Of a DNA stretch of 64,000 nucleotides, positions 43,208 to 61,028 are shown piece after piece. The notes under the pieces were generated by a model. It made no database searches. It had not been told where the DNA came from and saw only the letters and a program-made list of their open reading frames with translations. Position numbers and translations under genes: made by a program. How positions within the stretch are numbered: position 1 is the stretch's first letter; every line of letters starts with the position of its first letter. Source of the DNA: Myxococcota bacterium (GTDB lineage Bacteria; Myxococcota_A; UBA9160; UBA6930); contig OZ245002.1 in NCBI GenBank assembly GCA_965223415.1, forward strand, positions 4,864,001 to 4,928,000. The letters run 5' to 3'.

Positions 43208-44071
43208 GATGAACGCCTCCGCTTCGTAGCTCGCCTCCTCGAGGGCGAGAAGATGGCGCCGCTCTGCCGCGAGTTCGGGATCTCCCGGGTCACCGGGTAC
43301 TAGATCTACCAGCGCTACAAGGCTTGCGGCCTGGAAGGCCTCCAGGACCGATCCCGGCGCCCCGATCGCCACGCAACCAGCTCCCGTACCAGCTCGAGCG
43401 GGCGATCCTCGGGATCAAGAAGGAGCATACCTCCTGGCGCGCCGAAGATTCGCGACAAGCGGATCCGCGACTTCCCGATGATCAGGCCTCCGGCGGTGAG
43501 CACGGTGCATGCCGTGCTGGATCGCAACGGTCTCGTCAAGCGTCGCAGACGCGGTCGCCCGACGGCGATCCGCACCGACACCGGGGTTCCCTTCGCATCG
43601 CCCAACGCACTCGGTCTCTCGAAAGCTCTCCCTCTGGTGGCTCAAGCTCGGCATCCAGATCCAGCGCATCAAGCCGGGTTGCCCTCAGCAGAACGGACGG
43701 CACGAACGCATGCATCTCACGCTCAAGAAAGAAGCCACCAAGCCCGCGTCGTTCAACTTCCTGCAGCAGCAGGAGCGCTTCGACCGGTTCACGGGCGTCT
43801 ACAATCACGAGCGACCGCATCAGGCCCTGGGCGGTGCGTACCCCGGCGACCTCTATACATCTTTGCCGCGCGCCTACGAGCCACCCGACGAGCCGGAGTA
43901 CCCGTTCCACGACCGGTCCGTTCGGGTGACTCAGTGCGGCCGCATCTGCATGGGGCGACGCAAGATCAACCTCAGCACGGTCTTCCGAGCCGGCTCCGAA
44001 CCCCTTCGGGCCCCAGAAAGTGTCAACCATGTCCCCGGAATGATCTGTAAACCATGTGCCCGGAATGGACC
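43208..44071 (+). pseudogene. Degraded IS481-family element
   Basis: DERLRFVARLL..LCREFGISRVTGY then an in-frame stop; frameshifts; PQQNGRHERMH.TLK, YNHERPHQAL. Right end carries two ~22-bp direct repeats TGT(C/A)AACCATGT(C/G)CCCGGAATG at 44021 and 44046. Confidence 0.85.
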
Positions 44072-44081
44072 CGCGAAAACC

Positions 44082-44126
44082 TGGCGCCCCCGGCACGACT
44101 CGAACGTGCGACACCCGGTTTAGGAA
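44082..44126 (-). other. 3' half of tRNA-Arg(CCU), att-like site
   Basis: Minus strand TTCCTAAACCGGGTGTCGCACGTTCGAGTCGTGCCGGGGGCGCCA: anticodon loop, T-arm and CCA end; no D-arm or 5' acceptor strand. Confidence 0.85.
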
Positions 44127-44269
44127 GTGCCGGACCGTAGCCCTCCCACGCCGTTGGTTGCCCTACCCCGCAGCAGATTCCAGGATTGCTCGCGTTCAAT
44201 GCCATACCGAAGACGGCCGATGTTGTACCTCGCCGCCTTCCCATGGCCTTACTCGCGAGGACCTCGAGG

Positions 44270-44726
44270 ATGCCCGGCCGCAACAAGCTCAAGCTGACGA
44301 AGACCGCCGTCGAGACGCGCTGCCGCTTGCCGGAGGGGCGGCGCCAGGCCATCTACTGGGACACGGAGATCCCGGGCTTCGGGCTCCGGGTCGGTCAGAG
44401 GACCCGGACCTACATCCTCCAGCGGGACCTTCCGGGAGGCCGGACCCGGCGCGTGACGATCGGCCGCCACGGCGCCTGGACCGTTCAGCAGGCGCGGAAG
44501 AAGGCCCGCGAGCTGATCGCCCGCATCGACGAGGGCGAGGACCCCAACGCCACCCGGCGGGCCCGGGCGGCCCGGGGCGTCACACTCCGGCAGGCCCTGG
44601 ACATCCACCTGAGGCGGCTGGAGGCAAAGGATGCAAGCGAGCGAACGAAAGAGACCCTCCAGGACGAGGTCCCCCGCCACCTGGGCGACTGGCTGGACCG
44701 GCCCCTGATCGAAATCCGGCGACAGC
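44270..44726 (+). pseudogene. Tyrosine integrase N-terminal part (arm-binding domain), truncated by IS21
   Basis: KLTKTAV..YWDTEIPGFGLRV..RRVTIGRHG..AR..A..G.DP arm-binding signature; catalytic domain absent. Confidence 0.85.
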
Positions 44727-44861
44727 TGTCGAGGGACGTCATCTCTTGCGCGCTAAGAGGACGGCTAGTTTTGCGCACCCCCCTGGGTTGATGTTCGGTT
44801 CTTCCTTCTTCTCTTCCGCTCTCCGAAGGAGAGCACGGCCGTCAGGCCGCCCTCTGGGGCC

Positions 44862-45662
44862 TCAACGCTGGGCGCTTTGCCCCGCGGCCTGCTCGAGCTC
44901 GCGGAGCCGGTAGCTCCGCCCCGAGATGTTGAGCACCTGGCTGTGGTGGAGGAGGCGATCGAGGATGGCGGTGGCCAGCACCTCGTCGCCCGCCAGCACC
45001 TCGGGCCAGTCGGCGATGCCCTTGTTCGTGGTGATCAGGATCGAGCCCCTCCCATAGCGGTAGGAGACGAGCCGGAAGAAGAGGCTCGCCTCCTGGCGCG
45101 TCATGGGCTCGAAGCCGACCTCGTCGATGACGAGGAGCGCCACGTTCATGTGCTTGCGCCGCCGCAGCCGTTGCGGGCTGATCTCGGCGTCGCGCTTGAG
45201 GGCCGCCAGCAGGTCCTCGAGGCGATGGAAGGCCACGGAGAAGCCGTTCTCCACGGCCCGCACCCCCAGGGCCACCGCCAGGTGGGTCTTGCCCACTCCC
45301 GGCGGACCCTGGATCAGCAGACTCTCCTTGGCCCGGATCCACGCGCAGGTGCCCAGCGTCTCGATCCGGCTCCGCTCCACACTCGGCTGGAAGGCGAAGT
45401 CGAAGTTGCCGAGGGTCTGCCCCGTGGGAAGGCCCGAGAGACGGAGCGAGGTCTTCATCCTCCGCTCCTCGCGGTGCTGCAGCTCGGCCTCGAGCAGCAG
45501 GTCGAGGAAGCGGTGGGGCACGAGGTCGTCCTTGGTCGCTCGGGCCAGCTCCTCGCCGATGTGCTCGGCCGCGTGATGGAGGCCGAGGCGCACGAGCCGC
45601 TCGCGGGTCGGGTCGAGATCCACCTTGCCGCCCTTCTTGGGCACCGGGTTTCCCGCCGTCAT
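44862..45662 (-). CDS. istB: IS21 helper ATPase
   Basis: FDFAFQP, GPPGVGKTHLA, IDEVG, ITTN, ILDRLLHH, G.SYR. Confidence 0.95.
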   Translation of the reverse strand: MTAGNPVPKKGGKVDLDPTRERLVRLGLHHAAEHIGEELARATKDDLVPHRFLDLLLEAELQHREERRMKTSLRLSGLPTGQTLGNFDFAFQPSVERSRIETLGTCAWIRAKESLLIQGPPGVGKTHLAVALGVRAVENGFSVAFHRLEDLLAALKRDAEISPQRLRRRKHMNVALLVIDEVGFEPMTRQEASLFFRLVSYRYGRGSILITTNKGIADWPEVLAGDEVLATAILDRLLHHSQVLNISGRSYRLRELEQAAGQSAQR

Positions 45663-46930
45663 CGCGCCACCTCCGCCAGATCGGCATAGAGGTCGATCGG
45701 CCGCTGCTCCGGCTCCATCGCCCACAGCTCCTGGAGGCGTCGACCCATGCGCCCGAGCGGTACGGGCGCCTCCACCCCCTCCGTGCTCGGCCCCTCGTAG
45801 TGGCTCGGGTCCAGCAGCAGGCGGCTTCGCGTGTGGCGCGGGTGCGCGGCCACCACCGAGCCCTCGGCCCAGACCTGCACCTGCCGGGCGCAGCCGCGCA
45901 CCTCGACGCTCTGCTCGACGAAGCGGAAGGGGACGCTGTAGGTACGCCCCTCGAAGCGCACCGTGGCGTCGCGCCCGACACGTCGCATCACGGCCAGGTC
46001 GAAGGGCTCGGGAAGCCGCTCGGGCAGGGCCCCGAGATGGGGCTTCTCCGCCTCCCACGCCTGGAAGACCGTCGTGCCCGTCGCCGGGCACTGCCGCCGG
46101 TGGCTCGAGCGCGCCACCTGGCCGTCCGTCCACGCTTGCAGCGACTCCAGGCTCTCGTGCTCCCGCCGACGCGGATCGAAGCCCCGCCGGTGCCCCAGGA
46201 TCCGACGCTCCACCTTCCCCTTCTCCTGCGGCTGGCGGGGACGGGTGGCGTCCACGTGGAAGCGAAGGGCCCCGGCATAGCTCGCGTAAGCCGGGTTCAC
46301 CGTCCCCCATGGCCCCGCCCCCTTCGCCACCGCTGTCTTCACGTTGTCGACCCGCAGCACCGCCGGCACCCCGCCCAGCCGCTCGAAGGCCCGGTTGTGC
46401 ACGTCCAGCCACGCCAGCGTGTCCGCCCGCTCCGACCACACCACCGCTTCTCGCCGCGAGTGCGAGAGCACCAGGTGGAAGGCATGCAGGTCCACCTCCT
46501 GGCCCCCGATCCGCACGCCCGGAAACTCGCCCCAGTCCACCTGACCCTGCGCCCCGGGCGGTGTCTCCACCCGACGCCGGCTCCGCACCTTCGGTCTCGG
46601 GAACCGGGCCCGCACGTACCGCTGCACGCTCTTGGAGCTCCCCGTGTACCCGTGCTCCTCCACCAGGAACTCGTGAAGCTCCTGCAGGTTCACGCCACGG
46701 CCTCCCGAGCTCGCCTCCAGCCACTCCGCGATCACCTCGTGGACCGCCTCGGCCAGGAAGGGCTTCCCGCTCCGGCCGTCTCGCGCCCCCTCCGCCAGCC
46801 GCTTCAGCCGGTAGCGCACCGCGCTCTCCCGGATCCCCAGCTGGCGGGCGATCTCCCGGTTCGAGCACCCCCGCTCGTGCAGCACTTCGATCGTCATCAC
46901 TTCCTCCTGCCTCAGTCGCCGCTGCCCCAC
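45659..46930 (-). CDS. istA: IS21 transposase
   Basis: N-terminal HTH, ETPPG.QGQVDWG, DN.K, EKGKVER, YSVP. Confidence 0.95.
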   Translation of the reverse strand: MGQRRLRQEEVMTIEVLHERGCSNREIARQLGIRESAVRYRLKRLAEGARDGRSGKPFLAEAVHEVIAEWLEASSGGRGVNLQELHEFLVEEHGYTGSSKSVQRYVRARFPRPKVRSRRRVETPPGAQGQVDWGEFPGVRIGGQEVDLHAFHLVLSHSRREAVVWSERADTLAWLDVHNRAFERLGGVPAVLRVDNVKTAVAKGAGPWGTVNPAYASYAGALRFHVDATRPRQPQEKGKVERRILGHRRGFDPRRREHESLESLQAWTDGQVARSSHRRQCPATGTTVFQAWEAEKPHLGALPERLPEPFDLAVMRRVGRDATVRFEGRTYSVPFRFVEQSVEVRGCARQVQVWAEGSVVAAHPRHTRSRLLLDPSHYEGPSTEGVEAPVPLGRMGRRLQELWAMEPEQRPIDLYADLAEVAR

Positions 46931-47028
46931 GCCCCCCTCCCTCACGGGGAACGTGCCGCGCAGCGGCTCAACAGGAGGTGCGCAAATCTACGTGTCCTCT
47001 TAGCCCTCGAATATCACGTCCTGCGACA

Positions 47029-47520
47029 ACGCTCGAAGCGCACGGCATCTCGGTCGTGCTCTCGGGTGGAGCCGTCGTCTCGATCTACTCCGATGCGGAG
47101 TACGTCTCGTACGATCTCGATTTCATTCCCACGGGCCTCGCACGGAAAGTCGACACCGCCATGGAATCCCTCGGCTTCAAGAAGACCCAGCGGCACTGGA
47201 CGCATCCAAAGAGCCGCTACTGAGTCGAGTTCCCACCCGGCCCGGTGGCGATCGGAGACGAAACGATCCGCAGCTTCGCCGAGCGCGAGACGCGAATGGG
47301 GACGCTGCGACTGCTGGCTCCGACCGAGTGCGTCATGGACCGGCTCGCCGGGTACTTCCACGATGCGGACACGCAGTGCCTCGAACAGGCGATCCAGGTC
47401 GCGACGCGGCATCCCGTCGATCTGAAGCGCATCGCGAGGTGGGCGCGCGCTGAGCGGCCTCATGGTGAGGAACGCTACCGGGAGTTCGAGCGGCGGCTAC
47501 GCGAGACCGCGGGTCGGTAG
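47029..47520 (+). pseudogene. 5'-truncated nucleotidyltransferase, paralog of 60244-60795
   Basis: Begins at the IS21 end with TLEAHGISVVLSGGAVVSIYSD; TGG>TGA stop at 47221-47223; otherwise aligns with the intact copy. Confidence 0.88.
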
Positions 47521-47569
47521 CCGCTCTGACTGGCAGGATTCGAACCCCCGACCCTTGTATCTACTCCAC

Positions 47570-47745
47570 TCACCCGGATCTGGTTCAATAGGGTCAGAAC
47601 GGGTTTCGGGGGAGGGTCGCCGTCCCGACCCAGAGGCATGGTCCTCGTACCTGAGAGAGGCGCCCTCGCCCGATCTCGCAAGCTCGAACGGTATCCCGAG
47701 GCAGCGGTCTGCCGCTCGTCCTCGCATGCACAAGGAAGAGCACCG
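47570..47745 (+). ncRNA. Predicted IS110 bridge RNA, copy 1 (ends approximate)
   Basis: 5' hairpin; target loop with CCCGACCC (47624-31) and ACCTGAG (47649-55); donor loop with ACGGTATC (47688-95) and ACAAG (47730-34). Each guide matches the target or donor junction. Confidence 0.85.
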
Positions 47746-47794
47746 AGGTCGGCACCGAGGCTCCCGACGCTCCCGTTCGAGGAGGAAGAAGGGG

Positions 47795-48970
47795 ATGCGC
47801 TTCGTTGGGATCGACATCGCCTCGGAAACGCACGTCGTCGCGATGGTGGGAGAAGACGGGGGCGTGCTGCTGAAGCCGGTCTCGTTCCGGGAGGAGGCGG
47901 CTGGCTACGCACTGCTGTGGGAGAAGCTGGGAGGCCCCGAGGACACGCTCGTAACGCTCGAGGCAACGGGGCACTACTGGAAGAACCTGTTCGCGGCGCT
48001 TGCGGCGAGGGGTTTTGCCGTGGCGTTGATCAACCCGCTGCGCAGTCGCCGGTTCGCACAAGAAGACTTGGAGCGGACGAAGACCGACGCAATCGATGCG
48101 CTCGGCCTGGCTCGCTTCGGAGCACAGAAGCGTCCGAGGGTGACTCGCCTTCCGGACGCGGCGACAGAAGAGCTTCGTGAGCTCGTCCGGCTCCGCGATC
48201 GTCTGGTTCAGGACTTCGGGGACTGCACCCGGCGGCTCCACCGCATGGTCGATCTGGGCTTCCCAGAGCTCAAACGGTACGTGAAGCACCTCGATAGCCA
48301 GCTGTCGACGGGGCTGCTGCGGGAGTACCCCACGGCAAGAGCCTTCCAGGAAGCCTCTGTGGGGCGCGTGGCAAAGCTTCGCTACGACGGTCGTCATCGT
48401 GTAGGCGATGCGCTCGCGAAGCAGCTCGTCGAGGCTGCGCAGAACTCGGTGGGCGCCCATCATGGCCCGGCCTACCAGGTGCAGGTGCGTTACCTGTGCG
48501 AAGACATGGACGTCTTGCGCAAGAGACTCGGCGACATCGACCGCGACATCGCGGATCAGCTATCCGCGCACGAGGTCGGAAGCTTGCTGACGACGATCGA
48601 TGGGATCGGGCCGACGACGGCAGCACGGCTCATCGCGGAGCTCGGTGACCCGGCCGACTTCGCCACGGCCGCAGCCCTCGCCGCCTACGTGGGCGTCGTT
48701 CCAGGCCTAAAGCAGTCGGGCAAGCGCCAAGGCAAACGCGGGAACCTCTCGCCAATCGGTCACGCGCGGCTACGTCGCGCACTGTGGATGCCGACGTTGG
48801 TCGCCGTTCGGAAGAACCCCTGGGTGCGGGCCCACTACGAGCGGCTGCGCGACAACGGCAAGCCCGCAAAGGTCGCGCTGATCGCCTCGACGAGGAAGCT
48901 GCTCATCGCGGTTCACGTCGTGGCGAGGACCCGCAAGCCCTTCGTTCCACAGCTAGAGACCAACCCATGA
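47795..48970 (+). CDS. IS110 DEDD recombinase (391 aa)
   Basis: GIDIA, LEATG, KTDAID (DEDD); IDGIG; QSG serine loop; GAGGAGG upstream. Confidence 0.96.
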   Translation: MRFVGIDIASETHVVAMVGEDGGVLLKPVSFREEAAGYALLWEKLGGPEDTLVTLEATGHYWKNLFAALAARGFAVALINPLRSRRFAQEDLERTKTDAIDALGLARFGAQKRPRVTRLPDAATEELRELVRLRDRLVQDFGDCTRRLHRMVDLGFPELKRYVKHLDSQLSTGLLREYPTARAFQEASVGRVAKLRYDGRHRVGDALAKQLVEAAQNSVGAHHGPAYQVQVRYLCEDMDVLRKRLGDIDRDIADQLSAHEVGSLLTTIDGIGPTTAARLIAELGDPADFATAAALAAYVGVVPGLKQSGKRQGKRGNLSPIGHARLRRALWMPTLVAVRKNPWVRAHYERLRDNGKPAKVALIASTRKLLIAVHVVARTRKPFVPQLETNP

Positions 48971-49605
48971 ACCGAGAAAACCGGGCCCAGCCCCTTGCTG
49001 AAGATCACGGTATCTCAGGTTCGAAGCCTGATGCTCGATGTCGAGCCACCGGACAGCGCACTTCGAAGAACCGCGTGCATCCAGGCGTCAAGGGTCCGAG
49101 ATCAGGCGCTCCGCGCAACAACCAAGCACGACCAAAGTGCGGAACCAAGCACCGCCAGAACGCGAATTCCTCAGCGAATCCGGCGGCTTCTGGCGGGGCG
49201 GACGGGACTCGAACCTACAACCTCCGGCTGTAAGTCCGCGGAAACGCAGGGGTCCGAAGAGGTGAAGCTTGTATCCCGTTGTATCCCAACCGGGGCACGC
49301 CGGGCCAGGTAGGGCGATGGGGCGGCGGCGGGTAGCCGCCATCCCTCGGGTCCGCGAGCGAGCCCCCTTGCCAGCGCCTCGACGTGAGCTAAATCGGCAT
49401 TGGATCGCACGCAGACATCCCGGGGTCGAGGCCAAGGCGGCGTAGCCCCGGCATGGCTCTTGCGCGCGCCTTGTTGAGGATGTCGCCCGGGTCCGGGTGA
49501 GCTTCGCGTCCCCGCACTGCGGGGGCACGCATCTCCATCTCTTCAGGGCGCCACCGGTCCGCGATCGCGGCGCCCTGTCCCCTCGGCCGGGCGACGTGGG
49601 CCGGC

Positions 49606-50886
49606 TTGCGCGTCTTCTCCGTCTCGCTCTCGCTGCTCGTCGCCGTCGGGCTCTCGCTCGCAGGCAACGGCCTCCTCGGTACGCTGTCGGCACTTCGCCT
49701 CGCCGACGCAGCCCTGCCCGACGAACTGACCGGCCTCGTCCTCGCGGCGTACTTCGCAGGCCTCATGGCCGGCACGCTCGGGCTCGGGAGGACAGTGGCT
49801 CGGGTCGGTCACATCCGGTCCTTCGCGGCCTTCACGGCACTCGCCGTGTTCGCGGCGCTCGCCCAGGGCCTCACCTCGCCGGGCATGCTCTGGCTTCCGC
49901 TTCGGGCGATGACCGGACTGTGCATGGCCGGGACCTACCTGACCGTCGAGTCCTGGCTCCACGCGGAGGCCGGCCCGGAGAGCCGCGGCCGTGTGCTGGC
50001 CGCCTATCTCGTCGCACTCTACCTGGGTACCGGGGCCGGTCAGCTCCTGCTGCCGCTCGCGCCTACCGAGACCCTCGACGCGTTCGCGCTGGCTGCCCTG
50101 CTGACGAGCCTCGCAGTGGTCCCGGTCTGTCTGACGCGCGTTTCTGCACCTCGCCTCGAGCAAGCGGCGACCAGGGCGACCTCCGGGCTCGTGCGCGACG
50201 CGCCCCTCGGGCTCGGCGGGGCCCTCGTCTCGGGATTCGTCGCGGGCACCATCTACGCGAACGCACCGCTCCTTGGGCGCGCGACCGGCATGGAGTCGAC
50301 CGACGTTGCCGGCCTGATGGCCGCCTTCTTCGCGGGCGGCCTCGCCGGACAATGGCCGCTCGGCCGGCTTTCGGACCGCATGGATCGTCGGCTCGTTCTC
50401 TTGGGGGCGATGTTGGGTCTCGCTGGGCTCTGCGCCGCGTTCCTCTTAGTGGCCGCCACGCCTTCCACCATCTGGTGGGCGCTCGCCTTCGCGTTCGGCG
50501 CCCTGGCCTTTGCCCTCTACCCGCTGGCCGTGGCGCACACCATCGACCGGGTGGGTGCGAATCACTCGCTCCCGGCAACGAGTCAGCTCCTGCTGGCTTC
50601 GTCGATCGGCGCGTTCTCGGCACCGGTGCTCGTCGGCGCGGCGAGCCCCTGGCTCGGTGCTTCCGCGTTCCTCCAGCTCGACGCGCTGCTTCTGGTCGGC
50701 TTCAGCCTCGCGGCCTCGCTGCGGATCCTCCGTGTCGATCCGGTCCGCCAGGGTCCGTTCCAGCCCATGGCGAGGACGACACAAGCGGCGCACGAGCTCG
50801 ATCCGCGCCACAGCGGTGACGCTTCATCCCCCGGGCACCAAGCCTCGGTTCCCGCTCGACCCGCGACGGTCGGAGACACCCCATGA
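49606..50886 (+). CDS. MFS transporter (YcaD-like)
   Basis: GNGL, RVGHIR.F, VESWL, QWPLGRLSDR.DRR, LYP; about 12 TMs. Confidence 0.9.
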   Translation: MRVFSVSLSLLVAVGLSLAGNGLLGTLSALRLADAALPDELTGLVLAAYFAGLMAGTLGLGRTVARVGHIRSFAAFTALAVFAALAQGLTSPGMLWLPLRAMTGLCMAGTYLTVESWLHAEAGPESRGRVLAAYLVALYLGTGAGQLLLPLAPTETLDAFALAALLTSLAVVPVCLTRVSAPRLEQAATRATSGLVRDAPLGLGGALVSGFVAGTIYANAPLLGRATGMESTDVAGLMAAFFAGGLAGQWPLGRLSDRMDRRLVLLGAMLGLAGLCAAFLLVAATPSTIWWALAFAFGALAFALYPLAVAHTIDRVGANHSLPATSQLLLASSIGAFSAPVLVGAASPWLGASAFLQLDALLLVGFSLAASLRILRVDPVRQGPFQPMARTTQAAHELDPRHSGDASSPGHQASVPARPATVGDTP

Positions 50887-50944
50887 AGAACCGCCGGCCC
50901 GGCGACATCCCCCTCAGCCAGATTGCGAGCGCGAGGGCGGCAGC

Positions 50945-52132
50945 GTGAAGCTCGCCATCCTCTCGAGAGAACCGCGGAGCTACAGCACGCGCCGCCTGAA
51001 GGAAGCCGCGCGGGAGCGCGGCCATCGGGCCCGCGTACTCGATCCGACGCTGTTCTCGATCGAAGTCGCGAGCGGGAACCCACACCTCTACTACAGAGGG
51101 CGCGCGCTGGAGCGTTTCGACGCGGTGATCCCGCGTATCGGCGCCTCCATCACCTTCTTCGGAACGGCGGTCGTGCGTCAGTTCGAACAGATGGGCGTGT
51201 TCTGCGTGAACACGTCCACGGCCATCTCGACGTCGCGCGACAAGCTCCGGGCGCTCCAGATCCTGAGCCGGCACCACGTCGGCATCCCGAAGACGTCCTT
51301 CGTTCGCGAGAAGAACGCGATGCTCGAAACGGTGGAGCGGATGAAGGGCCCGCCGGTCATCGTGAAGTTGCTGGAAGGGAGTCAAGGTCTGGGTGTGATC
51401 CTCGCCGAGACGAAGAAGTCCGCGGAGGCGATCGTCGAAACGCTCCAGTTTGCGACGGGCAACAATGTCCTCATCCAGGAATTCGTGGCCGAGTCGCGCG
51501 GCCGCGACATCCGCGCCTTCGTTGTCGACGGCCGGGTCGTCGCGGCCATGCGGAGAACGGCGCAGGAGAGCGAGTTCCGGAGCAACGTCCATCGCGGCGG
51601 GCTGGCCGACGCGGTGGAGCTCGATCCTGTGTACGAGCGCACCGCCATCCACGCTGCCCAGATCCTCGGGCTCCGGGTCGCCGGCGTGGACATGCTCGAG
51701 GGCGCCGATGGCCCGATGCTGATGGAGGTGAACTCGTCGCCCGGCCTCGAGGGCATCGAAGGGGCGACTGGCGTCGACATCGCGGCGACCATTCTCGAGA
51801 TGATCGAAGATCAGGTGCTCTTCCCCGAGATCGACATCCGGCAGCGACTCACACTGCAGAGCGGGTACGGCGTGCTCGAGATCCCGATCGACCGCGGGTC
51901 CGAGCTGTGCGGGCGGACGATTCGCGAGTCCGGTCTGAAGGGTCGGGACGTCCTCGTCCTCCAGATCCAGCGTGGCAGCGTCACGATCCCCAACCCGAAG
52001 ACGAGCCGGGAGATCCTGGCTGGCGACGTGCTGCTCTGTTTCGGCAAGACGTTGACCCTCCGCACCCTGGCGCCGGCACCGCGACGTCGCAATCGGCGTC
52101 GCGGCTCGGCCGTGGGGGCCGCCGATGGCTGA
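50945..52132 (+). CDS. rimK: RimK-family ATP-grasp alpha-L-glutamate ligase with C-terminal RCK-C (TrkA-C) domain
   Basis: YSTRRL, IPRIGAS, SRDKLR, EFRSNVHRGG, EVNSSPGLEGIE; tail SEL.G.TI.E..L...V.VL.I.R..IPNP...I.AGD.L. Confidence 0.88.
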   Translation: MKLAILSREPRSYSTRRLKEAARERGHRARVLDPTLFSIEVASGNPHLYYRGRALERFDAVIPRIGASITFFGTAVVRQFEQMGVFCVNTSTAISTSRDKLRALQILSRHHVGIPKTSFVREKNAMLETVERMKGPPVIVKLLEGSQGLGVILAETKKSAEAIVETLQFATGNNVLIQEFVAESRGRDIRAFVVDGRVVAAMRRTAQESEFRSNVHRGGLADAVELDPVYERTAIHAAQILGLRVAGVDMLEGADGPMLMEVNSSPGLEGIEGATGVDIAATILEMIEDQVLFPEIDIRQRLTLQSGYGVLEIPIDRGSELCGRTIRESGLKGRDVLVLQIQRGSVTIPNPKTSREILAGDVLLCFGKTLTLRTLAPAPRRRNRRRGSAVGAADG

Positions 52133-53156
52133 ATGCGTCGAGATCGCGGGAGAGACGATTCGGCGCGGGGAACGTCGGCGAATCCAGATCCCGCTGGCGC
52201 TGCGGCCGACACAGGCCGAGGTCTCGATGTCCGCGGAGGTCATCTGCGGGGCCCGGGACGGGCCGCAGCTCTTCGTGTGCGCCGGCATTCATGGGGACGA
52301 GATCAACGGGGTCGAGATCATCCGGCGCGTGTTGCGCCGCTCGTTCCGGGGGCTTCGGGGGACGCTCCTGGCGGTTCCGATCGTGAACGTCCACGGATTC
52401 GTGGCCCACAGCCGAACCCTGCCCGACCGGAGGGATCTGAACCGCGCCTTCCCGGGCTCGCCCCGAGGATCGCTCGCGGCGCGGCTTGCGCACCAGTTCA
52501 TGGAGAACGTGGTCAAGGCTTCGACGCATGGCATCGATCTCCACACGGCGGCGATCCACCGGGAGAACCTCCCGCAGATCCGCGCCTGCCTCGACGACTC
52601 CGAGACCGAAGAGCTCGCGCGAGCGTTCGGTACGCCCGTTCTGCTCAACTCCGACCTGCGCGACGGGTCGCTCCGCGAGGCGGGACAGGAGCACGGGGTT
52701 CCGGTCCTCGTCTACGAGGGCGGCGAGGCGCTGCGATACAACGAGGCCGCCATCCGCGCCGGCGTGCGCGGGGTGCTTCGCGTGATGCGCCAGCTCAGGA
52801 TGCTCCCGGATGCGGGCGATCGGGGTCGTATCATCGAGCCGTTCGTCGCCCGCAGCAGTGCCTGGGTACGTGCGCCCGAAAGCGGGCTGCTGCGGGTCCG
52901 CGCCAAGCTCGGTGCTCGCGTCAAGAAGGGGTTCGTCCTCGGCGTCATCTCCGACCCGCTGGGCACGGAGGATACGACCGTCAGCGCGAGCCGCGCCGGA
53001 ATCGTGGTGGGCCGCACGCGTCTTCCCGTCGTGAACGAGGGCGATGCACTCTTCCATGTCGCGAGCTTTGACGCGGTGCAATCCGTGGCGCGGGAGGTCG
53101 AGTCCTTCCACGATGAGCTGTTTGATTCCGGCGTTTCGCCCCCCATGGCGGACTGA
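52125..53156 (+). CDS. Succinylglutamate desuccinylase/aspartoacylase (M14-like) family protein
   Basis: IHGDEING, DLNRAFPG, IDLHT, YEGGEALR. Confidence 0.92.
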   Translation: MAECVEIAGETIRRGERRRIQIPLALRPTQAEVSMSAEVICGARDGPQLFVCAGIHGDEINGVEIIRRVLRRSFRGLRGTLLAVPIVNVHGFVAHSRTLPDRRDLNRAFPGSPRGSLAARLAHQFMENVVKASTHGIDLHTAAIHRENLPQIRACLDDSETEELARAFGTPVLLNSDLRDGSLREAGQEHGVPVLVYEGGEALRYNEAAIRAGVRGVLRVMRQLRMLPDAGDRGRIIEPFVARSSAWVRAPESGLLRVRAKLGARVKKGFVLGVISDPLGTEDTTVSASRAGIVVGRTRLPVVNEGDALFHVASFDAVQSVAREVESFHDELFDSGVSPPMAD

Positions 53157-53170
53157 GAAGGAGCAGATCG

Positions 53171-54361
53171 ATGCGCGGTTGGATCCTCGACGGCAAGCCC
53201 GTCCCGGACCCCTCACTCGAAGGCTACGAAGTTCGTCGGTTCCTGGAGGTCGGCGAGAGAGTCGGCATCGATGTCGACCTGGTCACGCCCGAGCAGCTCG
53301 ATCTCGTGGTGACGAGCAGTGGCCGCCCGAGCATCGCGCGGAACGGCAGATCCGTTCCGCTCCCCGACTTCCTGCTTCCGCGCATGGGTGCTTACACGAC
53401 CTACTTCGGGCTTGCCGTGATCCGGCACCTGGAACGCCTGGGAGTGCTGACGGTCAACTCGGCCGAGAGCATCGACACCGTGAAGGACAAGCTCTTCACC
53501 CACCAGATCCTCGCTCAGAACGAGCTGCCGATCGCGCGAACGATGCTCGCCAAACATCCGCTCGACGTCGCCTTCGTGGAGAAAGAGATCGGATTCCCGG
53601 TCGTCGTGAAGACGATCACCGGATCCCAGGGGGCCGGTGTCTTCCTTTGCGAGGATCGTCACCACTTCGAGGATCTGATGGAGCTCGTTCTCGCCGCGCG
53701 CAGCAACGCGAACCTGATCCTCCAGGAGTACGTGGCCTCGAGTCGAGGGCGCGATCTCCGCGTGTTCACGGTCGGCGGCCGCGCCGTGGCCGCGATGGAA
53801 CGTTCTTCGCAGGACGGCTCGTTCAAGGCGAATGTCTCGAGGGGCGGACGGGCCACCGCCTACTCGTTGGACGCCGAGAGCGAGTGGCTGGCGCTCGAAG
53901 TCACGCGCTTGCTGGGTCTCGACGTGGCGGGGATCGATCTGCTCTTCGACGGCGACCACTACCTCGTCTGCGAGGCGAACTCGTCGCCCGGTTTCCGCGG
54001 TCTCGAGTCGTGCTGCGCCGTCAGCATCCCGCACGAGATCCTGCGCTTTGCTGCGCTCCGCCTCGGTCGCCACGACGTCGCCGACCGGCTCGAGGTGGAT
54101 CTCGCGGAGTCGTTCGGCGACCCGCCGGTCGGCGTTGCGAGCACATGGTCCAACGCGCACTGTGCGGTGAGCGCTAGCGGCACCAGCGACGCAGAGCGCG
54201 CGCTCGCCGAGGTGGGCGCGGTCAAGGGCCAGGGTGGCTGCATGGCGATCGATGGGCGGGGTCGCATCACGACGGTCCTGAACAGCCCGCAGATGGTGCG
54301 AGCATCGCTCGTCGAGGGCGAGCCCATGCGTCTCGGGATCTGGACGGATGACGATGCGTGA
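53171..54361 (+). CDS. Second RimK-like ATP-grasp ligase with C-terminal isoaspartyl-peptidase-like extension
   Basis: PRMG, KDKL, GSQGAGV, FKANVSRGG, CEANSSPGF; tail GDPPVG..TW...CAVSASG...GG..AID..G....NS..M.RA. Confidence 0.82.
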   Translation: MRGWILDGKPVPDPSLEGYEVRRFLEVGERVGIDVDLVTPEQLDLVVTSSGRPSIARNGRSVPLPDFLLPRMGAYTTYFGLAVIRHLERLGVLTVNSAESIDTVKDKLFTHQILAQNELPIARTMLAKHPLDVAFVEKEIGFPVVVKTITGSQGAGVFLCEDRHHFEDLMELVLAARSNANLILQEYVASSRGRDLRVFTVGGRAVAAMERSSQDGSFKANVSRGGRATAYSLDAESEWLALEVTRLLGLDVAGIDLLFDGDHYLVCEANSSPGFRGLESCCAVSIPHEILRFAALRLGRHDVADRLEVDLAESFGDPPVGVASTWSNAHCAVSASGTSDAERALAEVGAVKGQGGCMAIDGRGRITTVLNSPQMVRASLVEGEPMRLGIWTDDDA

Positions 54362-54420
54362 CCACGACCTGCCTGGGCTGCCGCCCGGACTCACCCGCCG
54401 AACCCGACTTGGAGGCCGCC

Positions 54421-54765
54421 GTGGAAATCGCAAGAACTGGTGAGATCGTCCACATCATCGAGCGGCGCCTGTTCGTCGGTGATGTCCGCCGCCACTTCGT
54501 CGGAGAGGTCGAGGCGTGCGCCGACCGTGCGCTTCGGGTTCGTGGTTATCTCTTCGTCTATGACTCCTCCGAGAGCGCGTTCACGAAGAAGCCCGAGCTC
54601 CGCACTCGAATCTTCCCGCTCGACAATCGGCTGATCCTGAGCCTTTTGCCGCAGGGGACACACCTGGAACAGGTCCGATACGACCACGACGACGAGGGCA
54701 ACCTGTCCCTGGTCGACGGAGCCGACCTCGAGCTCGACATCAGCGAGTTCAGCTCCCGGGAGTAA
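54421..54765 (+). CDS. Hypothetical protein (start approximate)
   Basis: GGAGG RBS before GTG; last gene of the cassette operon. Confidence 0.6.
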   Translation: MEIARTGEIVHIIERRLFVGDVRRHFVGEVEACADRALRVRGYLFVYDSSESAFTKKPELRTRIFPLDNRLILSLLPQGTHLEQVRYDHDDEGNLSLVDGADLELDISEFSSRE

Positions 54766-54843
54766 CGGCCGCTCCGGAACCCCTCAGGCCGCGCGGGGCG
54801 TCCGTTGCACGGAGGCCTTCACCCCGCGTGCATGGAAACGGGG

Positions 54844-55140
54844 CACCACCCCCAGGTTCGAAGCCTGGTGCTCAACCTCGCTCCGCGCGGACACGAGCGC
54901 GCGTGTCGGCGAAGCTGGAACCCGCTTGGTTCCCGGATGTATCCCGCGCGCGTCGCGGCTCGACAACCGCTGCTCGCGCGTGGACTTACGCGCGAAGCGT
55001 GCGGGTTCCGAGAAACCCGAAAAGCTGAATGAAATCAGCTTGATGGCGGGGCGGACGGGACTCGAACCTACAACCTCCGGCTGTAACCTCCCGGAAACAC
55101 AGGGGTCCGAAGAGATGAAGCTTGTATCCCGTTGTATCCC
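54844..55140. repeat. tRNA-derived spacer repeat B
   Basis: CCCAGGTTCGAAGCCTGGTGCTC; divergent middle; core 55044-55086; TTGTATCCCGTTGTATCCC tail. Confidence 0.9.
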
Positions 55141-55258
55141 GACTTCGCCGGATCGCCATCGGGATGCTTGGCCACCGGCCTTCCGCCAGGACCGAGCCCG
55201 TGCGGAGCCGTGTGGCGCGCGCCTTGCCGTCATGACTGAATCCAACTATCGTACGTAC

Positions 55259-55486
55259 ATGACGAAGAGGCTGACGCGCTCTGGAAACAGCCTGGCCCTC
55301 GTGATCGATCGGCCTCTCCTGGAAGCGCTGGAAATCGACGCGGACACGGAGCTGGAGCTCTCCACCGATGGAGACGTCCTAGTCGTGACCCCGCTGCGCG
55401 ACCCCAAGCGGAGGCGTCGGGTCGCCGAGCTCGTTGCCGAAGCCCACGAGCAGTACGGCGGCGTGTTCCGACGCCTCGCCGAGTGA
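55259..55486 (+). CDS. AbrB/MazE-fold antitoxin
   Basis: KRLTRSGNSLALVID; stop overlaps the toxin GTG. Confidence 0.88.
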   Translation: MTKRLTRSGNSLALVIDRPLLEALEIDADTELELSTDGDVLVVTPLRDPKRRRRVAELVAEAHEQYGGVFRRLAE

Positions 55487-55875: not shown

Positions 55876-55917
55876 TCGGGCCCAGCGCACGGGTGATTCG
55901 CTTGCCCCAACGCAGGC

Positions 55918-56190
55918 GACTCGAACCCCCGACCCCCCGGTTCGAAGCCTGATGCTCAACCCCGTGCGGCGAGTCGCGTGGATGCAGGCGTCAGGAGTCC
56001 GAGATCAGGCGCTCGCCGCGACAACCAAACGCAACCAAAGGCCGGAACCAAGCACCGCCAGAATGCGAATTCCCCTGCGAATCCGGCTACTTCTGGCGGG
56101 GCGGACGGGACTCGAACCTACAACCTCCGGCTGTAACTCCGCGGAAACGCAGGGGTCCAGGGAGCTGAAGCTGGTATCCCGTTGTATCCC
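55918..56190. repeat. tRNA-derived spacer repeat C (intact, empty)
   Basis: TCGAACCCCCGACCCCCCGGTTCGAAGCCTGATGCTC; middle shared with A, D and E; core 56094-56136; GTATCCC pair. Confidence 0.92.
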
Positions 56191-56206
56191 GACCTCCGAT
56201 CGCGCT

Positions 56207-56235
56207 CCGACATCTGATAGCCAATTGGCTATTAT
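56207..56235 (+). promoter_or_regulatory. Promoter with palindromic operator for the HTH-NTase pair
   Basis: CCGACA-17-TATTAT; perfect palindrome ATAGCCAATTGGCTAT at 56217-56232; ATG 6 nt after the -10. Confidence 0.7.
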
Positions 56236-56241
56236 TCGAGC

Positions 56242-57076: not shown

Positions 57077-57120
57077 CCGCGACCTGGGACTCGAACCCCC
57101 AACCCTTGTATCTACTCCAC

Positions 57121-57296
57121 TCACCCGGATCTGGTTCAATAGGGTCAGAACGGGTTTCGGGGGAGGGTCGCCGTCCCGACCCAGAGGCATGGTCCTCGTA
57201 CCTGAGAGAGGCGCCCTCGCCCGATCTCGCAAGCTCGAACGGTATCCCGAGGCAGCGGTCTGCCGCTCGTCCTCGCATGCACAAGGAAGAGCACCG
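57121..57296 (+). ncRNA. Predicted IS110 bridge RNA, copy 2 (ends approximate)
   Basis: Same sequence as copy 1, offset 9551. Confidence 0.85.
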
Positions 57297-57345
57297 AGGT
57301 CGGCACCGAGGCTCCCGACGCTCCCGTTCGAGGAGGAAGAAGGGG

Positions 57346-58521
57346 ATGCGCTTCGTTGGGATCGACATCGCCTCGGAAACGCACGTCGTCGCGATGGTGG
57401 GAGAAGACGGGGGCGTGCTGCTGAAGCCGGTCTCGTTCCGGGAGGAGGCGGCTGGCTACGCACTGCTGTGGGAGAAGCTGGGAGGCCCCGAGGACACGCT
57501 CGTAACGCTCGAGGCAACGGGGCACTACTGGAAGAACCTGTTCGCGGCGCTTGCGGCGAGGGGTTTTGCCGTGGCGTTGATCAACCCGCTGCGCAGTCGC
57601 CGGTTCGCACAAGAAGACTTGGAGCGGACGAAGACCGACGCAATCGATGCGCTCGGCCTGGCTCGCTTCGGAGCACAGAAGCGTCCGAGGGTGACTCGCC
57701 TTCCGGACGCGGCGACAGAAGAGCTTCGTGAGCTCGTCCGGCTCCGCGATCGTCTGGTTCAGGACTTCGGGGACTGCACCCGGCGGCTCCACCGCATGGT
57801 CGATCTGGGCTTCCCAGAGCTCAAACGGTACGTGAAGCACCTCGATAGCCAGCTGTCGACGGGGCTGCTGCGGGAGTACCCCACGGCAAGAGCCTTCCAG
57901 GAAGCCTCTGTGGGGCGCGTGGCAAAGCTTCGCTACGACGGTCGTCATCGTGTAGGCGATGCGCTCGCGAAGCAGCTCGTCGAGGCTGCGCAGAACTCGG
58001 TGGGCGCCCATCATGGCCCGGCCTACCAGGTGCAGGTGCGTTACCTGTGCGAAGACATGGACGTCTTGCGCAAGAGACTCGGCGACATCGACCGCGACAT
58101 CGCGGATCAGCTATCCGCGCACGAGGTCGGAAGCTTGCTGACGACGATCGATGGGATCGGGCCGACGACGGCAGCACGGCTCATCGCGGAGCTCGGTGAC
58201 CCGGCCGACTTCGCCACGGCCGCAGCCCTCGCCGCCTACGTGGGCGTCGTTCCAGGCCTAAAGCAGTCGGGCAAGCGCCAAGGCAAACGCGGGAACCTCT
58301 CGCCAATCGGTCACGCGCGGCTACGTCGCGCACTGTGGATGCCGACGTTGGTCGCCGTTCGGAAGAACCCCTGGGTGCGGGCCCACTACGAGCGGCTGCG
58401 CGACAACGGCAAGCCCGCAAAGGTCGCGCTGATCGCCTCGACGAGGAAGCTGCTCATCGCGGTTCACGTCGTGGCGAGGACCCGCAAGCCCTTCGTTCCA
58501 CAGCTAGAGACCAACCCATGA
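57346..58521 (+). CDS. IS110 DEDD recombinase (391 aa)
   Basis: Protein identical to 47795-48970. Confidence 0.96.
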   Translation: MRFVGIDIASETHVVAMVGEDGGVLLKPVSFREEAAGYALLWEKLGGPEDTLVTLEATGHYWKNLFAALAARGFAVALINPLRSRRFAQEDLERTKTDAIDALGLARFGAQKRPRVTRLPDAATEELRELVRLRDRLVQDFGDCTRRLHRMVDLGFPELKRYVKHLDSQLSTGLLREYPTARAFQEASVGRVAKLRYDGRHRVGDALAKQLVEAAQNSVGAHHGPAYQVQVRYLCEDMDVLRKRLGDIDRDIADQLSAHEVGSLLTTIDGIGPTTAARLIAELGDPADFATAAALAAYVGVVPGLKQSGKRQGKRGNLSPIGHARLRRALWMPTLVAVRKNPWVRAHYERLRDNGKPAKVALIASTRKLLIAVHVVARTRKPFVPQLETNP

Positions 58522-58887
58522 ACCGAGAAAACCGGGCCCAGCCCCTTGCTGAAGATCACGGTATCTCAGGTTCGAAGCCTGGTGCACAAGCCGGTTCAGA
58601 GAGGCTCGCGGATGCAGGCGTCAGGGGTCCGAGATCAGGCGCTCGCCGCGACAACCGAGCGCGACCAAAGAGCGGAACAAACCGCTGCCAGAGCGCGAAG
58701 CGAAAAGCTGAATGAAATCAGCTAGACGGCGGGGCGGACGGGCTCGAACGCGCGGAGCCCGGCGATAAGGGCCCGGAATCGTGAGGGTTTTCCTCGCCGG
58801 TGCTCAAGCTGTGCTCAAGGAAGCCTCGGAGGCCAGGCCGGCGGGATCGTGTTGTTGGAGTACGGTCCTGACGATATGGTTACCCGT

Positions 58888-59795: not shown

Positions 59796-59840
59796 GCCAT
59801 CGCCCCGCCCTCCCTGGGCCTTGCGCCCGGGCTTGGGCCA

Positions 59841-60816: not shown

Positions 60817-61028
60817 GGTGCAGGGGGGTGCAATAGGGTGCAGGGAGGTGTCGTTTCGACGGCACCGAACCGCGGGACGGCACCATACAGAGCGCGAACG
60901 GGTAGGTTCCGGACCTGCCCGAGCGGGATTCGAACCCCCGACCCCCAGGTTCGAAGCCTGAACGGACCCGTAGGAAATCCAAATGGTTGCGCGATTCCGA
61001 GCGGGAATGAACGGGAATACGCGGGAAT
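60817..61028. repeat. tRNA-derived repeat F: tRNA-Arg(UCG) 3' fragment flanked by phased direct repeats
   Basis: Fragment at 60916-60960 (minus strand CAGGCTTCGAACCTGGGGGTCGGGGGTTCGAATCCCGC); GGTGCA at 60817/60827/60837; CGGGAAT at 61002/61012/61022. Confidence 0.85.

What the first reader, a model, noticed from the sequence alone, without database searches (positions are those of the whole stretch)
47547..49020. IS110 bridge RNA is visibly programmed against the array's tRNA-Arg-derived repeat
Seen: removing the IS gives target CCCGACC-CT-CAGGT and circle junction CACGGTAT-CT-TGTAT. In the left end, a stem (GAGGGtCGCC/GGCGCCCTC) encloses an internal loop with CCCGACCC (47624-31, equal to the left target plus core C) and ACCTGAG (47649-55, reverse complement of CTCAGGT) around an inner GAGG/CCTC hairpin. 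A second stem (GCTC/GAGC) encloses ACGGTATC (47688-95, left donor) and ACAAG (47730-34, reverse complement of CTTGT). Established: this is the target-loop/donor-loop architecture of IS621-type bridge RNAs, and the donor resembles the IS621 donor ACAGTATCTTGTAT. Inference: a natural bridge recombinase aimed at a tRNA-Arg(UCG) anticodon-stem/variable-loop sequence, using the island's att-like repeats as landing pads. Two apparently identical copies suggest recent activity and a candidate programmable recombinase.
Basis: partly seen in the sequence, partly recalled or inferred. Interest (0 to 1): 0.85.

Follow-up and report, generated by a model that had tools for sequence, protein, structure and literature searches.

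The report
IS110 bridge RNA targeting tRNA-like repeats
Two identical copies of a small jumping gene sit at the same spot in two tRNA-like repeats, and the guide RNA encoded in its left end matches that spot, so this is a clean natural example of a known RNA-guided recombinase, not a new mechanism.

Summary
A 1460-bp IS110-family element (47556-49015; identical second copy 57107-58566) is flanked by CT cores. Its transposase has both IS110 Pfam domains and all five IS621 catalytic residues. Its left end matches, at 133.8 bits (E 2e-26), a covariance model built from 67 homologues without the window.

Across 78 aligned left ends the two-loop architecture is backed by compensatory changes. The target-loop slots vary and covary with the flanks. 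The donor-loop guide tracks the element's own right end in 64 of 67 loci.

In the window the left target guide equals the left target plus the first core base (8/8). The right target guide is complementary to core plus right target (7/8, the family norm). A handshake base fits target position 7. With the IS removed, ARAGORN at default settings calls a degenerate tRNA-Arg(tcg) at site 1; site 2 needs a relaxed threshold.

Both occupied repeats read CT at the core. The three unoccupied ones read CC, where IS621 needs T. Copy 2's only target difference is a G.T wobble at position 4, as in IS621.

Verdict: new member of a known kind. RNA expression and recombination activity are untested, and other genomic copies could not be examined.

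The parts
47547..47555 (+). Left target (CCCGACC) plus CT core of insertion 1
   Evidence: Continuous with 49016-49020 in the uninterrupted repeat copies.
47556..49015 (+). IS110-family element, copy 1 (1460 bp, counted with one CT core)
   Evidence: Ends conserved across homologues: TGTAT... and ...ACGGTAT-CT. Identical to copy 2.
47558..47563 (+). TATCTA, -10-like hexamer at the position conserved in the family
   Evidence: In 36 of 65 loci the best hexamer pair lies at this position. The window's pair scores 6/12 by my own count from the sequence.
47572..47604 (+). 5' stem-loop of the predicted bridge RNA
   Evidence: Fold of 47566-47606: z -2.35, 5 of 200 shuffles as good.
47604..47757 (+). 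Bridge RNA core (target-binding loop plus donor-binding loop)
   Evidence: Model R1, built from 67 homologues without the window: 133.8 bits, E 2e-26, full length 1-154.
47612..47667 (+). Target-binding loop closed by GAGGG(T)CGCC / GGCGCCCTC
   Evidence: Helix 2 is 100% paired across 75 distinct rows. The fold of the isolated RNA reproduces it.
47624..47631 (+). Left target guide CCCGACCC (left target positions 1-7 plus first core base)
   Evidence: 8/8 identical to the top strand of the flank.
47633..47646 (+). Inner hairpin of the target loop (GAGG / CCTC)
   Evidence: Helix 3: 3 of 5 pairs show compensatory change.
47649..47655 (+). Right target guide ACCTGAG (reverse complement of CT+CAGGT)
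   Evidence: 7 of 8 slot positions match; only the distal one differs, as in 35 of 59 loci.
47656..47657 (+). Target-loop handshake positions (AG)
   Evidence: The first base, A, pairs with donor T7. The second does not pair; the family has AT in 58 of 67 loci.
47670..47752 (+). Donor-binding loop with basal stem CCGATCTCG / CGAGGTCGG and stem GCTC / GAGC
   Evidence: Helices 4 and 5: 7 of 9 and 4 of 6 pairs show compensatory change.
47688..47695 (+). Left donor guide ACGGTATC
   Evidence: Equals the right-end ACGGTAT plus C. In the family the guide 7-mer equals the left donor in 64 of 67 loci, and in 14 of 15 loci with a variant left donor.
47730..47734 (+). Right donor guide ACAAG (reverse complement of CT+TGT)
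   Evidence: Nearly invariant in the family. L023 has ATAAG together with a left end CTTATAT.
47735..47736 (+). Donor-loop handshake positions (GA)
   Evidence: G pairs with target position 7 (C). Family: 49 of 58 Watson-Crick, against 57.5% in mismatched pairs.
47795..48970 (+). Transposase / bridge recombinase gene (391 aa)
   Evidence: PF01548 3.4e-36 and PF02371 3.3e-28. IS621 8wt6 1.2e-35. D7, E56, D98, D101 and S308 align to the IS621 catalytic residues.
48995..49000 (+). TTGCTG, -35-like hexamer in the right end
   Evidence: Conserved TTGAC/TTGCT block 21 nt before the junction.
49007..49015 (+). Left donor ACGGTAT plus CT core (right end of the IS)
49016..49020 (+). Right target CAGGT of insertion 1
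57098..57106 (+). Left target (CCCAACC) plus CT core of insertion 2
   Evidence: Position 4 is A, which gives a G.T wobble with the guide.
57107..58566 (+). IS110-family element, copy 2, identical to copy 1
   Evidence: Model hit at 57155-57308.
58567..58571 (+). Right target CAGGT of insertion 2
55928..55941 (+). Unoccupied repeat copy CCCGACC-CC-CCGGT
60937..60950 (+). Unoccupied repeat copy CCCGACC-CC-CAGGT
54844..54857 (+). Unoccupied, more diverged repeat copy CACCACC-CC-CAGGT

Best explanation
This is an IS621-type (IS110-group) insertion sequence. Its left end encodes a bridge RNA of about 190 nt, made of a 5' stem-loop, a target-binding loop and a donor-binding loop.

By analogy with IS621, the element would excise as a circle whose right-end/left-end junction reads ACGGTAT-CT-TGTAT. 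That junction rebuilds a weak sigma-70-like promoter (TTGCTG-17-TATCTA) that would drive the RNA. The donor loop holds the junction. [quoted passage not shown] The DEDD/Ser recombinase then exchanges strands at the CT core.

The programmed 14-mer lies on the opposite strand of a degenerate tRNA-Arg(UCG)-like sequence, spanning the 3' side of the anticodon stem, the variable loop and the start of the T stem. That sequence is repeated in a genomic-island array. The two repeat copies that carry CT at the core each received a copy. The copies with CC did not, because T at core position 2 is needed.

Shown here: element boundaries, domains and catalytic residues, RNA architecture and covariation, and the guide-flank and guide-end matches.
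Inferred: transcription, the circle, catalysis and the order of events.
For: Boundaries and identity:
- The two copies are identical over 1460 bp, while their flanks diverge beyond about 20 bp on each side.
- Uninterrupted repeat copies show the target is continuous.

Protein:
- PF01548 and PF02371.
- PDB hits ISCro4 4.6e-37 and IS621 1.2e-35. D7, E56, D98, D101 and S308 align to IS621 D11, E60, D102, D105 and S241 (the residues are named in a PMC11208158 passage).

RNA structure:
- Consensus structure of 78 left ends: 41 pairs, 97.6% of cells paired against 90.0% when shuffled, 25 pairs with compensatory change against 12.0+/-1.4, and 0 of 500 shuffles as high. Slid controls pair 39.5-49.3%.
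- A model built without the window hits both copies at 133.8 bits.
- Target-guide slots vary (1.3-1.4 bits), while scaffold (0.05) and donor guides (0.02-0.30) are conserved.

Guide logic in the family:
- Right target guide, variable positions: mean 3.05/4 against 1.28/4 in mismatched pairs (59 loci).
- Left target guide: 5.16/8 against 3.64/8 (58 loci).
- Donor-loop handshake base pairs with target position 7 in 49 of 58 loci, against 57.5%.
- Left donor guide equals the left donor in 64 of 67 loci, including 14 of 15 variants.

The window itself:
- Left target guide 8/8 and right target guide 7/8; handshake G opposite target C7.
- Strand assignment agrees with the definitions in PMC11208160 (passage).
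- Copy 2's only left-target difference is at position 4 and gives G.T. IS621 tolerates the same mismatch at the same position (passages).
- IS621 needs T at core position 2 (passage), and all three empty repeats have C there.
- ARAGORN at default settings calls tRNA-Arg(tcg) at restored site 1.
Against: - No expression, circle or activity data exist.
- Folding the whole left end alone does not give the architecture and is no better than shuffles (z -0.24). The isolated core does give it, but only at z -1.19.
- The window's left target guide is displaced one base towards the inner hairpin compared with 45 of 58 loci. Its base opposite core position 2 is A, which cannot pair. L066 has the same register at the same target as L016, so the variant seems to be tolerated.
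- Left-guide matches in the family are modest: 22 of 58 loci score 4/8 or less.
- The second target-loop handshake base does not fit.
- The junction promoter is weak (6/12 by my count). The script's best pair for the window was a different one, at 7/12.
- Only two insertions are visible. The T at the cores could in principle have come from the donor.
- Rfam has no matching family.
Confidence: 0.85

Rival explanations
1. There was only one insertion. The second copy arose when a repeat unit that already carried the IS was duplicated, so two copies say nothing about target choice.
For: Both copies lie in members of one repeat family, 9551 bp apart and in the same orientation.
Against: The IS copies have 0 differences over 1460 bp, yet the surrounding repeat units are only 73-93% alike. 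The flanks become unalignable about 20 bp to the left and 15 bp to the right of the IS. The left targets differ at position 4. A duplication old enough to diverge the flanks this much would also have diverged the IS. Gene conversion between the copies is not excluded.
Confidence: 0.05
2. The insertion site is chosen by protein or DNA-structure recognition of the tRNA-like hairpins, and the match to the left-end loops is coincidental.
For: The target lies in a sequence with strong hairpin potential. A preprint abstract (10.64898/2026.03.19.712850, search listing only) proposes a structure layer on top of RNA pairing for ISPpu10.
Against: Guide-flank covariation across 58-59 loci with unrelated targets. 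The window's guides match no other locus's flanks comparably. A structural contribution in addition to pairing is not excluded.
Confidence: 0.04
3. The element is a recently silenced relic. The guides record past targeting, but the weak junction promoter or the shifted left guide now prevents movement.
For: Junction hexamers score 6/12 (and the sequence itself). The left guide's register is unusual, and the second handshake base is mismatched.
Against: The ORF is intact with all catalytic residues. The two copies are identical. L066 shows the same register at a well-matched target.
Confidence: 0.1

Closest known systems
IS621 of Escherichia coli (IS110 family, IS110 group), bridge recombinase plus bridge RNA (PMC11208160, PMC11208158; passages read)
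   Same: - Both Pfam domains and all five catalytic residues.
- CT cores at both ends.
- RNA in the left end with target and donor loops.
- The left guide reads like the top strand and the right guide is its complement.
- Handshake positions.
- The donor differs at 1 of 14 bases from the IS621 donor.
- G.T wobble at target position 4.
- It targets a multi-copy repeat.
   Different: - The protein is only distantly alike (phmmer 1.2e-35, two separate stretches) and is longer (391 aa against a 328-residue PDB chain).
- The target is a tRNA-like repeat, not a REP element.
- The left guide sits one base closer to the inner hairpin.
- The donor loop has a 9-bp basal stem with strong covariation.
- The host has about 71% G+C.
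ISCro4 transposase (PDB 9t56)
   Same: Best solved-structure match (4.6e-37), with the same two domains.
   Different: I know it only from the PDB molecule name. Its RNA and target were not examined here.
The 80 homologous elements fetched from public genomes (L001-L080; Myxococcota, Burkholderiales, Alphaproteobacteria and others)
   Same: Same end sequences, same RNA scaffold and the same CT-CA target rule. Several of them sit in a shared GC-rich repeat (GGCCCTGCGGCG-CT in L016, L028, L029 and L066).
   Different: They are 54-71% identical in protein. None has the window's guides or its target.
IS110/IS1111 elements with fixed natural targets: IS4321/IS5075 in Tn21 inverted repeats, REP-targeting IS (titles in the reference list), and IS1111-attC elements in integron attC sites (recalled, not checked)
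   Same: A site-specific IS that lives in the repeated recombination or repeat sites of other genetic elements.
   Different: IS1111-group elements carry their RNA in the other end (recalled). The array here is not an integron.

Membership tests
IS110 family, IS621-type bridge recombinase system | RuvC-like DEDD domain (PF01548) and Tnp domain (PF02371) in one protein | tested here: met
   3.4e-36 and 3.3e-28, both above the curated cut-offs.
IS110 family, IS621-type bridge recombinase system | Catalytic D, E, D, D and Ser (IS621 D11, E60, D102, D105, S241) | tested here: met
   D7, E56, D98, D101 and S308 align to them. The chain numbering is offset by 2 from the paper's numbering (passage).
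IS110 family, IS621-type bridge recombinase system | Element flanked by the same core dinucleotide (CT), with no long terminal inverted repeats | tested here: met
   CT at 47554-55 and 49014-15. The ends TGTAT... and ...ACGGTAT are not inverted repeats of each other.
IS110 family, IS621-type bridge recombinase system | Non-coding RNA in the left end with two internal loops closed by conserved stems | tested here: met
   covariation; model hit without the window in the training set; fold of the isolated core.
IS110 family, IS621-type bridge recombinase system | Target loop: the left guide equals the top strand of the left target plus core, and the right guide is complementary to core plus right target | tested here: met
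   8/8 (9th position, opposite core T, mismatched) and 7/8. Family controls are in the same calls.
IS110 family, IS621-type bridge recombinase system | Donor loop: guides match the element's own right-end/left-end junction | tested here: met
   ACGGTAT in both the guide and the right end, and ACAAG opposite CTTGT. Family: 64 of 67.
IS110 family, IS621-type bridge recombinase system | Handshake guides next to the right guides | tested here: inconclusive
   the first position fits in both loops (G opposite target C7; A opposite donor T7). The second position fits in neither.
IS110 family, IS621-type bridge recombinase system | Sigma-70 promoter rebuilt across the circle junction | tested here: inconclusive
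   the hexamers lie at the family's conserved place but score only 6/12 in the window.
IS110 family, IS621-type bridge recombinase system | Circular intermediate, RNA expression, RNA-dependent recombination | not testable with these tools
   Needs RNA-seq, junction PCR and a recombination assay.
tRNA-Arg(UCG)-derived sequence as the target | Recognised as a tRNA once the IS is removed | tested here: inconclusive
   site 1 is called tRNA-Arg(tcg) by ARAGORN at default settings, but with a mismatched acceptor, a 3-bp D stem and a weak T stem. Site 2 is called only at -ps90, and one empty copy only at -ps85. Rfam gives no hit at E up to 1 on the interrupted and empty copies.

The most novel reading that the evidence does not exclude
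The two identical, directly oriented copies and the 8.1 kb between them (49016-57106) may form one expanded IS110 unit. That segment carries an MFS transporter, two RimK-like ligases, an AstE/AspA-like enzyme and two toxin-antitoxin-like cassettes.

Recombination between the left junction of copy 1 and the right junction of copy 2 would release an 11-kb circle with a normal ACGGTAT-CT-TGTAT donor junction. The same bridge RNA could then place that circle into any other CT-bearing tRNA-Arg-like site.

More broadly, the IS would be a specialised parasite of the att-like sites of a tRNA-linked island array, as IS1111-attC elements are of integrons. The array units also carry a CT+TGTATC half-site identical to core plus left end.
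Probability: 0.12. Interest if true: 0.5.

Novelty: new member of a known kind. Interest (0 to 1): 0.3.

Why it matters
It is a tidy natural case in which every element of the bridge-RNA code can be read off one window: both guides of each loop, one handshake base, the position-4 wobble and the need for T in the core. Occupied and unoccupied target variants sit side by side.

It adds a high-G+C orthologue with a near-IS621 donor and a left guide in a shifted register. That may be useful for those who screen orthologues, and it shows the guide-to-hairpin spacing is not rigid.

It also shows an IS110 element using tRNA-like island repeats as its niche. None of this changes the known mechanism.

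Tried and rejected
- **Rfam.** Searches at gathering threshold and at E up to 1 gave no hit, either for a bridge RNA family or for the tRNA fragments.
- **Whole left-end fold.** The minimum-free-energy fold of the whole left end did not show the architecture.
- **First restoration was wrong.** My first restoration of the pre-insertion sites was one base short. Its ARAGORN result is void and is replaced. The unit alignment has the same one-base fault in units 1 and 4, and I used it only for the layout of the units.
- **Near-identical copies.** None were found in plasmids (megablast). There was no relative above 71% protein identity in genome contigs. The target motif is absent from all 80 fetched loci. 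ARAGORN found one tRNA in the 36 of 80 loci scanned, a tRNA-Met in L009, which I did not relate to the IS there.
- **Ribosome-binding-site hairpin.** A hairpin masking the ribosome-binding site upstream of the transposase looked plausible in the family alignment, but it is not supported in the window (z 0.24).
- **Literature.** Searches for IS110 elements aimed at tRNA-derived sequences and a term search in one 2026 preprint (0 occurrences of 'tRNA') found no such report. Supplementary tables of the Nature paper were not opened and may list such targets.
Full report
**What is there.** The element runs from 47556 to 49015 (1460 bp, counted with one CT core). The left junction reads CCCGACC-CT-TGTAT (47547-47560) and the right junction ACGGTAT-CT-CAGGT (49007-49020). 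A second copy at 57107-58566 has no difference from the first. Outside the element the two loci stay alike for only about 20 bp on the left, with differences at 47539 and 47550, and 15 bp on the right, with the first difference at 49031. Beyond that they cannot be aligned. The window has 71% G+C.

**The protein.** The ORF 47795-48970 (391 aa) carries DEDD_Tnp_IS110 (3.4e-36) and Transposase_20 (3.3e-28). Among solved structures it matches the ISCro4 transposase (9t56, 4.6e-37) and the IS621 transposase (8wt6, 1.2e-35). In the IS621 alignment, D7, E56, D98, D101 and S308 stand opposite chain residues 13, 62, 104, 107 and 243. With a constant offset of 2, these are the D11, E60, D102, D105 and S241 that PMC11208158 names as the composite active site (passage).

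**Relatives.** One scan of genome contigs found 278 pattern matches, of which 135 encode a relative. The best 80 were kept, at 54-71% protein identity. They come from Myxococcota, Burkholderiales, Alphaproteobacteria and other phyla. Nothing close to the window's own element was found there, nor in plasmids. The source genome could therefore not be examined for further copies.

The relatives share these features:
- the left end, CT|TGTAT or TGTAA;
- the right end, ACGGTAT|CT, preceded by a TTGAC/TTGCT block;
- CA as the first two bases of the right flank.

**The RNA.** Alignment A1 holds 78 left ends. Its RNAalifold consensus has these elements:
- an outer stem, GAGGG-CGCC / GGCG-CCCTC, around a first internal loop with a small inner hairpin;
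- a 9-bp basal stem and a 5-bp stem around a second internal loop with a longer inner hairpin;
- a 4-bp long-range helix.

On 75 distinct rows, 97.6% of cells pair, against 90.0% in shuffles. Compensatory change is seen in 25 of 41 pairs, against 12.0+/-1.4, and no shuffle of 500 reaches any of the five measures. Sliding the partners by 1-3 columns drops pairing to 39.5-49.3%. These sequences are related, so the shuffle control overstates significance; the slid control and the number of pair types are the safer measures.

A covariance model was built from 67 homologues. The window was left out, as were the five loci with a long insertion in the donor hairpin and six duplicate sequences. It hits both window copies over its full length at 133.8 bits, E 2e-26. 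The next best hit in the window scores 18.4 bits.

Thermodynamics alone is weak evidence. The whole left end folds no better than shuffles and not into this shape (z -0.24). The isolated core does fold into it (z -1.19), and the 5' stem-loop has z -2.35. Rfam 15 has no family that matches.

**The guide code in the family.** PMC11208160 defines the guides as follows. [quoted passage not shown] The donor loop works the same way, and the core is included in each pairing (passage). The relatives obey this.

- The four variable positions of the right-guide slot match the reverse complement of the right flank at a mean of 3.05/4 in 59 loci, against 1.28/4 in 3296 mismatched pairs. The usual miss is the distal position (35 loci score 3/4).
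- The left-guide slot matches the left flank at 5.16/8 in 58 loci, against 3.64/8. This signal is real but modest, and 22 loci score 4/8 or less.
- The base after the right donor guide, the handshake position described in PMC11208158 (passage), pairs with target position 7 in 49 of 58 loci, against 57.5%.
- The left donor guide equals the last seven bases of the right end in 64 of 67 loci, including 14 of the 15 loci whose right end departs from ACGGTAT. L023 has ATAAG opposite a left end CTTATAT.
- The target-guide slots are the variable part of the RNA (1.3-1.4 bits per column). The scaffold (0.05) and the donor guides (0.02-0.30) are conserved.

**The window's own programming.**
- Left target guide CCCGACCC (47624-31) equals the left target plus the first core base, 8/8. 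Against the left flanks of the 57 other loci the same guide reaches at most 6/8.
- Right target guide ACCTGAG (47649-55) is the reverse complement of CT+CAGGT, 7/8 over the slot. Its variable positions match the 58 other right flanks at most 2/4.
- The donor-loop handshake base is G, opposite target C7. That is the minority class: 7 G-C loci against 40 C-G.
- The donor guides ACGGTATC and ACAAG match the element's own ends.
- The donor ACGGTATCTTGTAT differs at one base from the IS621 donor printed in PMC13396178 (passage).

**Two details that depart from the family.** First, the window's left guide lies one base nearer the inner hairpin than in 45 of 58 loci. Its base opposite core position 2 is A, and the hairpin has four pairs instead of five. 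L066 has the same register and is inserted at the same GGCCCTGCGGCG-CT sequence as L016, L028 and L029, which use the usual register. The shift therefore appears to be tolerated. Second, the second handshake base of the target loop is G where 58 of 67 loci have T.

**The target.** On the opposite strand the 14-mer reads ACCTGAGGGTCGGG. With the IS removed, ARAGORN at default settings calls a 72-nt tRNA-Arg(tcg) at site 1. In that model the core AG falls at the last pair of the anticodon stem and the first base of the variable loop. The model has two acceptor mismatches, a 3-bp D stem and a weak T stem, so it looks like a pseudogene. Site 2 is called only at -ps90, one empty copy only at -ps85, and the other two sequences give no tRNA-Arg call. 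My earlier attempt used a restoration one base short and is void.

The repeat has five copies in the window. Two are occupied, and both read CT at the core. Three are empty, at 54844, 55928 and 60937, and all read CC. PMC11208158 states that the second core base, T, is almost invariant and is read by the protein (passage), which explains the occupancy.

The T could instead have been brought in by the donor. Against this, L053 and L061 keep TT at the left junction and CT at the right. That suggests the left junction reports the target's own core, and here both left junctions read CT.

Copy 2's left target differs from the guide only at position 4 (A for G), which gives a G.T pair with the bottom strand. 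IS621 shows the same tolerated mismatch at position 4 of its natural REP targets (passages).

**Promoter.** In 36 of 65 loci the best -35/-10 pair across a computed right-end/left-end junction starts 21 nt before the junction and at the third base of the left end, for example TTGACA-17-TATGTT. In the window these places hold TTGCTG-17-TATCTA, 6/12 by my count. The script's top pair for the window was a different one, at 7/12. A junction promoter as in IS621 (legend passage) is therefore plausible but weak.

**Context.**
- Upstream lie an rve_3 fragment (43509-44120), the arm-binding domain of a P4-type integrase (44186-44788) and an IS21 element with IstA and IstB (44862-46945, minus strand).
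- The repeat is part of a unit of about 275 nt that also holds a tRNA 3'-end-like piece ending in CCA on the minus strand (family D3, four copies).
- Between the units lie two-gene cassettes with Doc, HTH and PIN domains.
- This fits an island built at tRNA-type attachment sites. No intact tRNA is called in the window; the single odd ARAGORN call at 59085-59169 lies inside the PIN gene.

**Rivals.**
- A single insertion followed by duplication is unlikely, because the IS copies are identical while the repeat units are 73-93% alike.
- Target choice by structure alone is contradicted by the covariation.
- A recently silenced element cannot be excluded.
- The boldest reading left open is that the two copies and the 8.1 kb between them move as one unit, as a 2026 preprint describes for expanded IS110 loci (passages).

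**Verdict.** This is a new member of the IS621-type bridge recombinase class with a tRNA-like natural target, not a new kind of system. Literature searches found no report of an IS110 element aimed at a tRNA-derived sequence.

Noticed in passing
window 49268-49289, 55121-55142, 56181-56190, 59786-59795: The array's repeat unit carries a tandem motif (C/G)TTGTATCCC. In 3 of 4 units it begins CTTGTATC, which is identical to the CT core plus the first six bases of the IS left end, on the same strand, about 250 nt downstream of the target. CTTGTAT occurs 5 times in the window against about 1 expected. It could be a right-donor-like half-site, or simply an arm-type protein-binding repeat.
   Followed up: partly
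window 49191-49290, 55044-55143, 56094-56193, 59709-59808: Four copies of a 100-nt repeat. On the minus strand it ends in a tRNA 3'-end-like sequence (T loop, T-stem 3' strand, acceptor 3' strand, CCA). The homology to a tRNA breaks at the T loop, as it does for the tRNA-Arg-like piece.
   Followed up: partly
window 43509-47000: A cluster of mobile-element remains: an rve_3 transposase fragment, the Arm-DNA-bind_3 domain of a P4-type integrase that stops after about 200 aa, and a full IS21 with IstA and IstB on the minus strand.
   Followed up: partly
window 55240-55872, 56242-57075, 58890-59561, 59915-60795: Two-gene cassettes between the repeat units: a small ORF plus Doc; an HTH_3 protein plus an unnamed ORF; a small ORF plus a PIN protein; and an unnamed pair. 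The second gene of that last pair is 81% identical in DNA to the fragment at 47026-47325.
   Followed up: partly
window 49606-54762: An MFS transporter, two RimK-type ATP-grasp ligases and an AstE/AspA-like enzyme lie between the two IS copies, inside the repeat array.
   Followed up: no
L053 and L061 (left junction TT, right junction CT): Two related elements from different genomes keep TT at the left core and CT at the right. Their left guide also reads TT. This is a natural case of unlike cores at the first core position.
   Followed up: partly
L022, L027, L039, L042, L048 (Azospirillum, Nitrospirillum, Parvibaculum): These relatives carry an extra GC-rich hairpin of about 25 nt inside the inner hairpin of the donor loop.
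   Followed up: no
alignment A1 columns 86-89 with 290-293 (window about 47608-11 with 47762-65): A 4-bp long-range helix (GGGA / UCCC) would close the whole two-loop RNA. It is 99.3% paired, but almost all of its variation is on one side only.
   Followed up: no
window 5732-5803: A perfect tandem duplication of 36 nt.
   Followed up: no
window 59085-59169: ARAGORN's only call in the untouched window is a 'tRNA-???' with a two-base anticodon, lying inside the PIN-domain gene. It is probably a false positive.
   Followed up: partly
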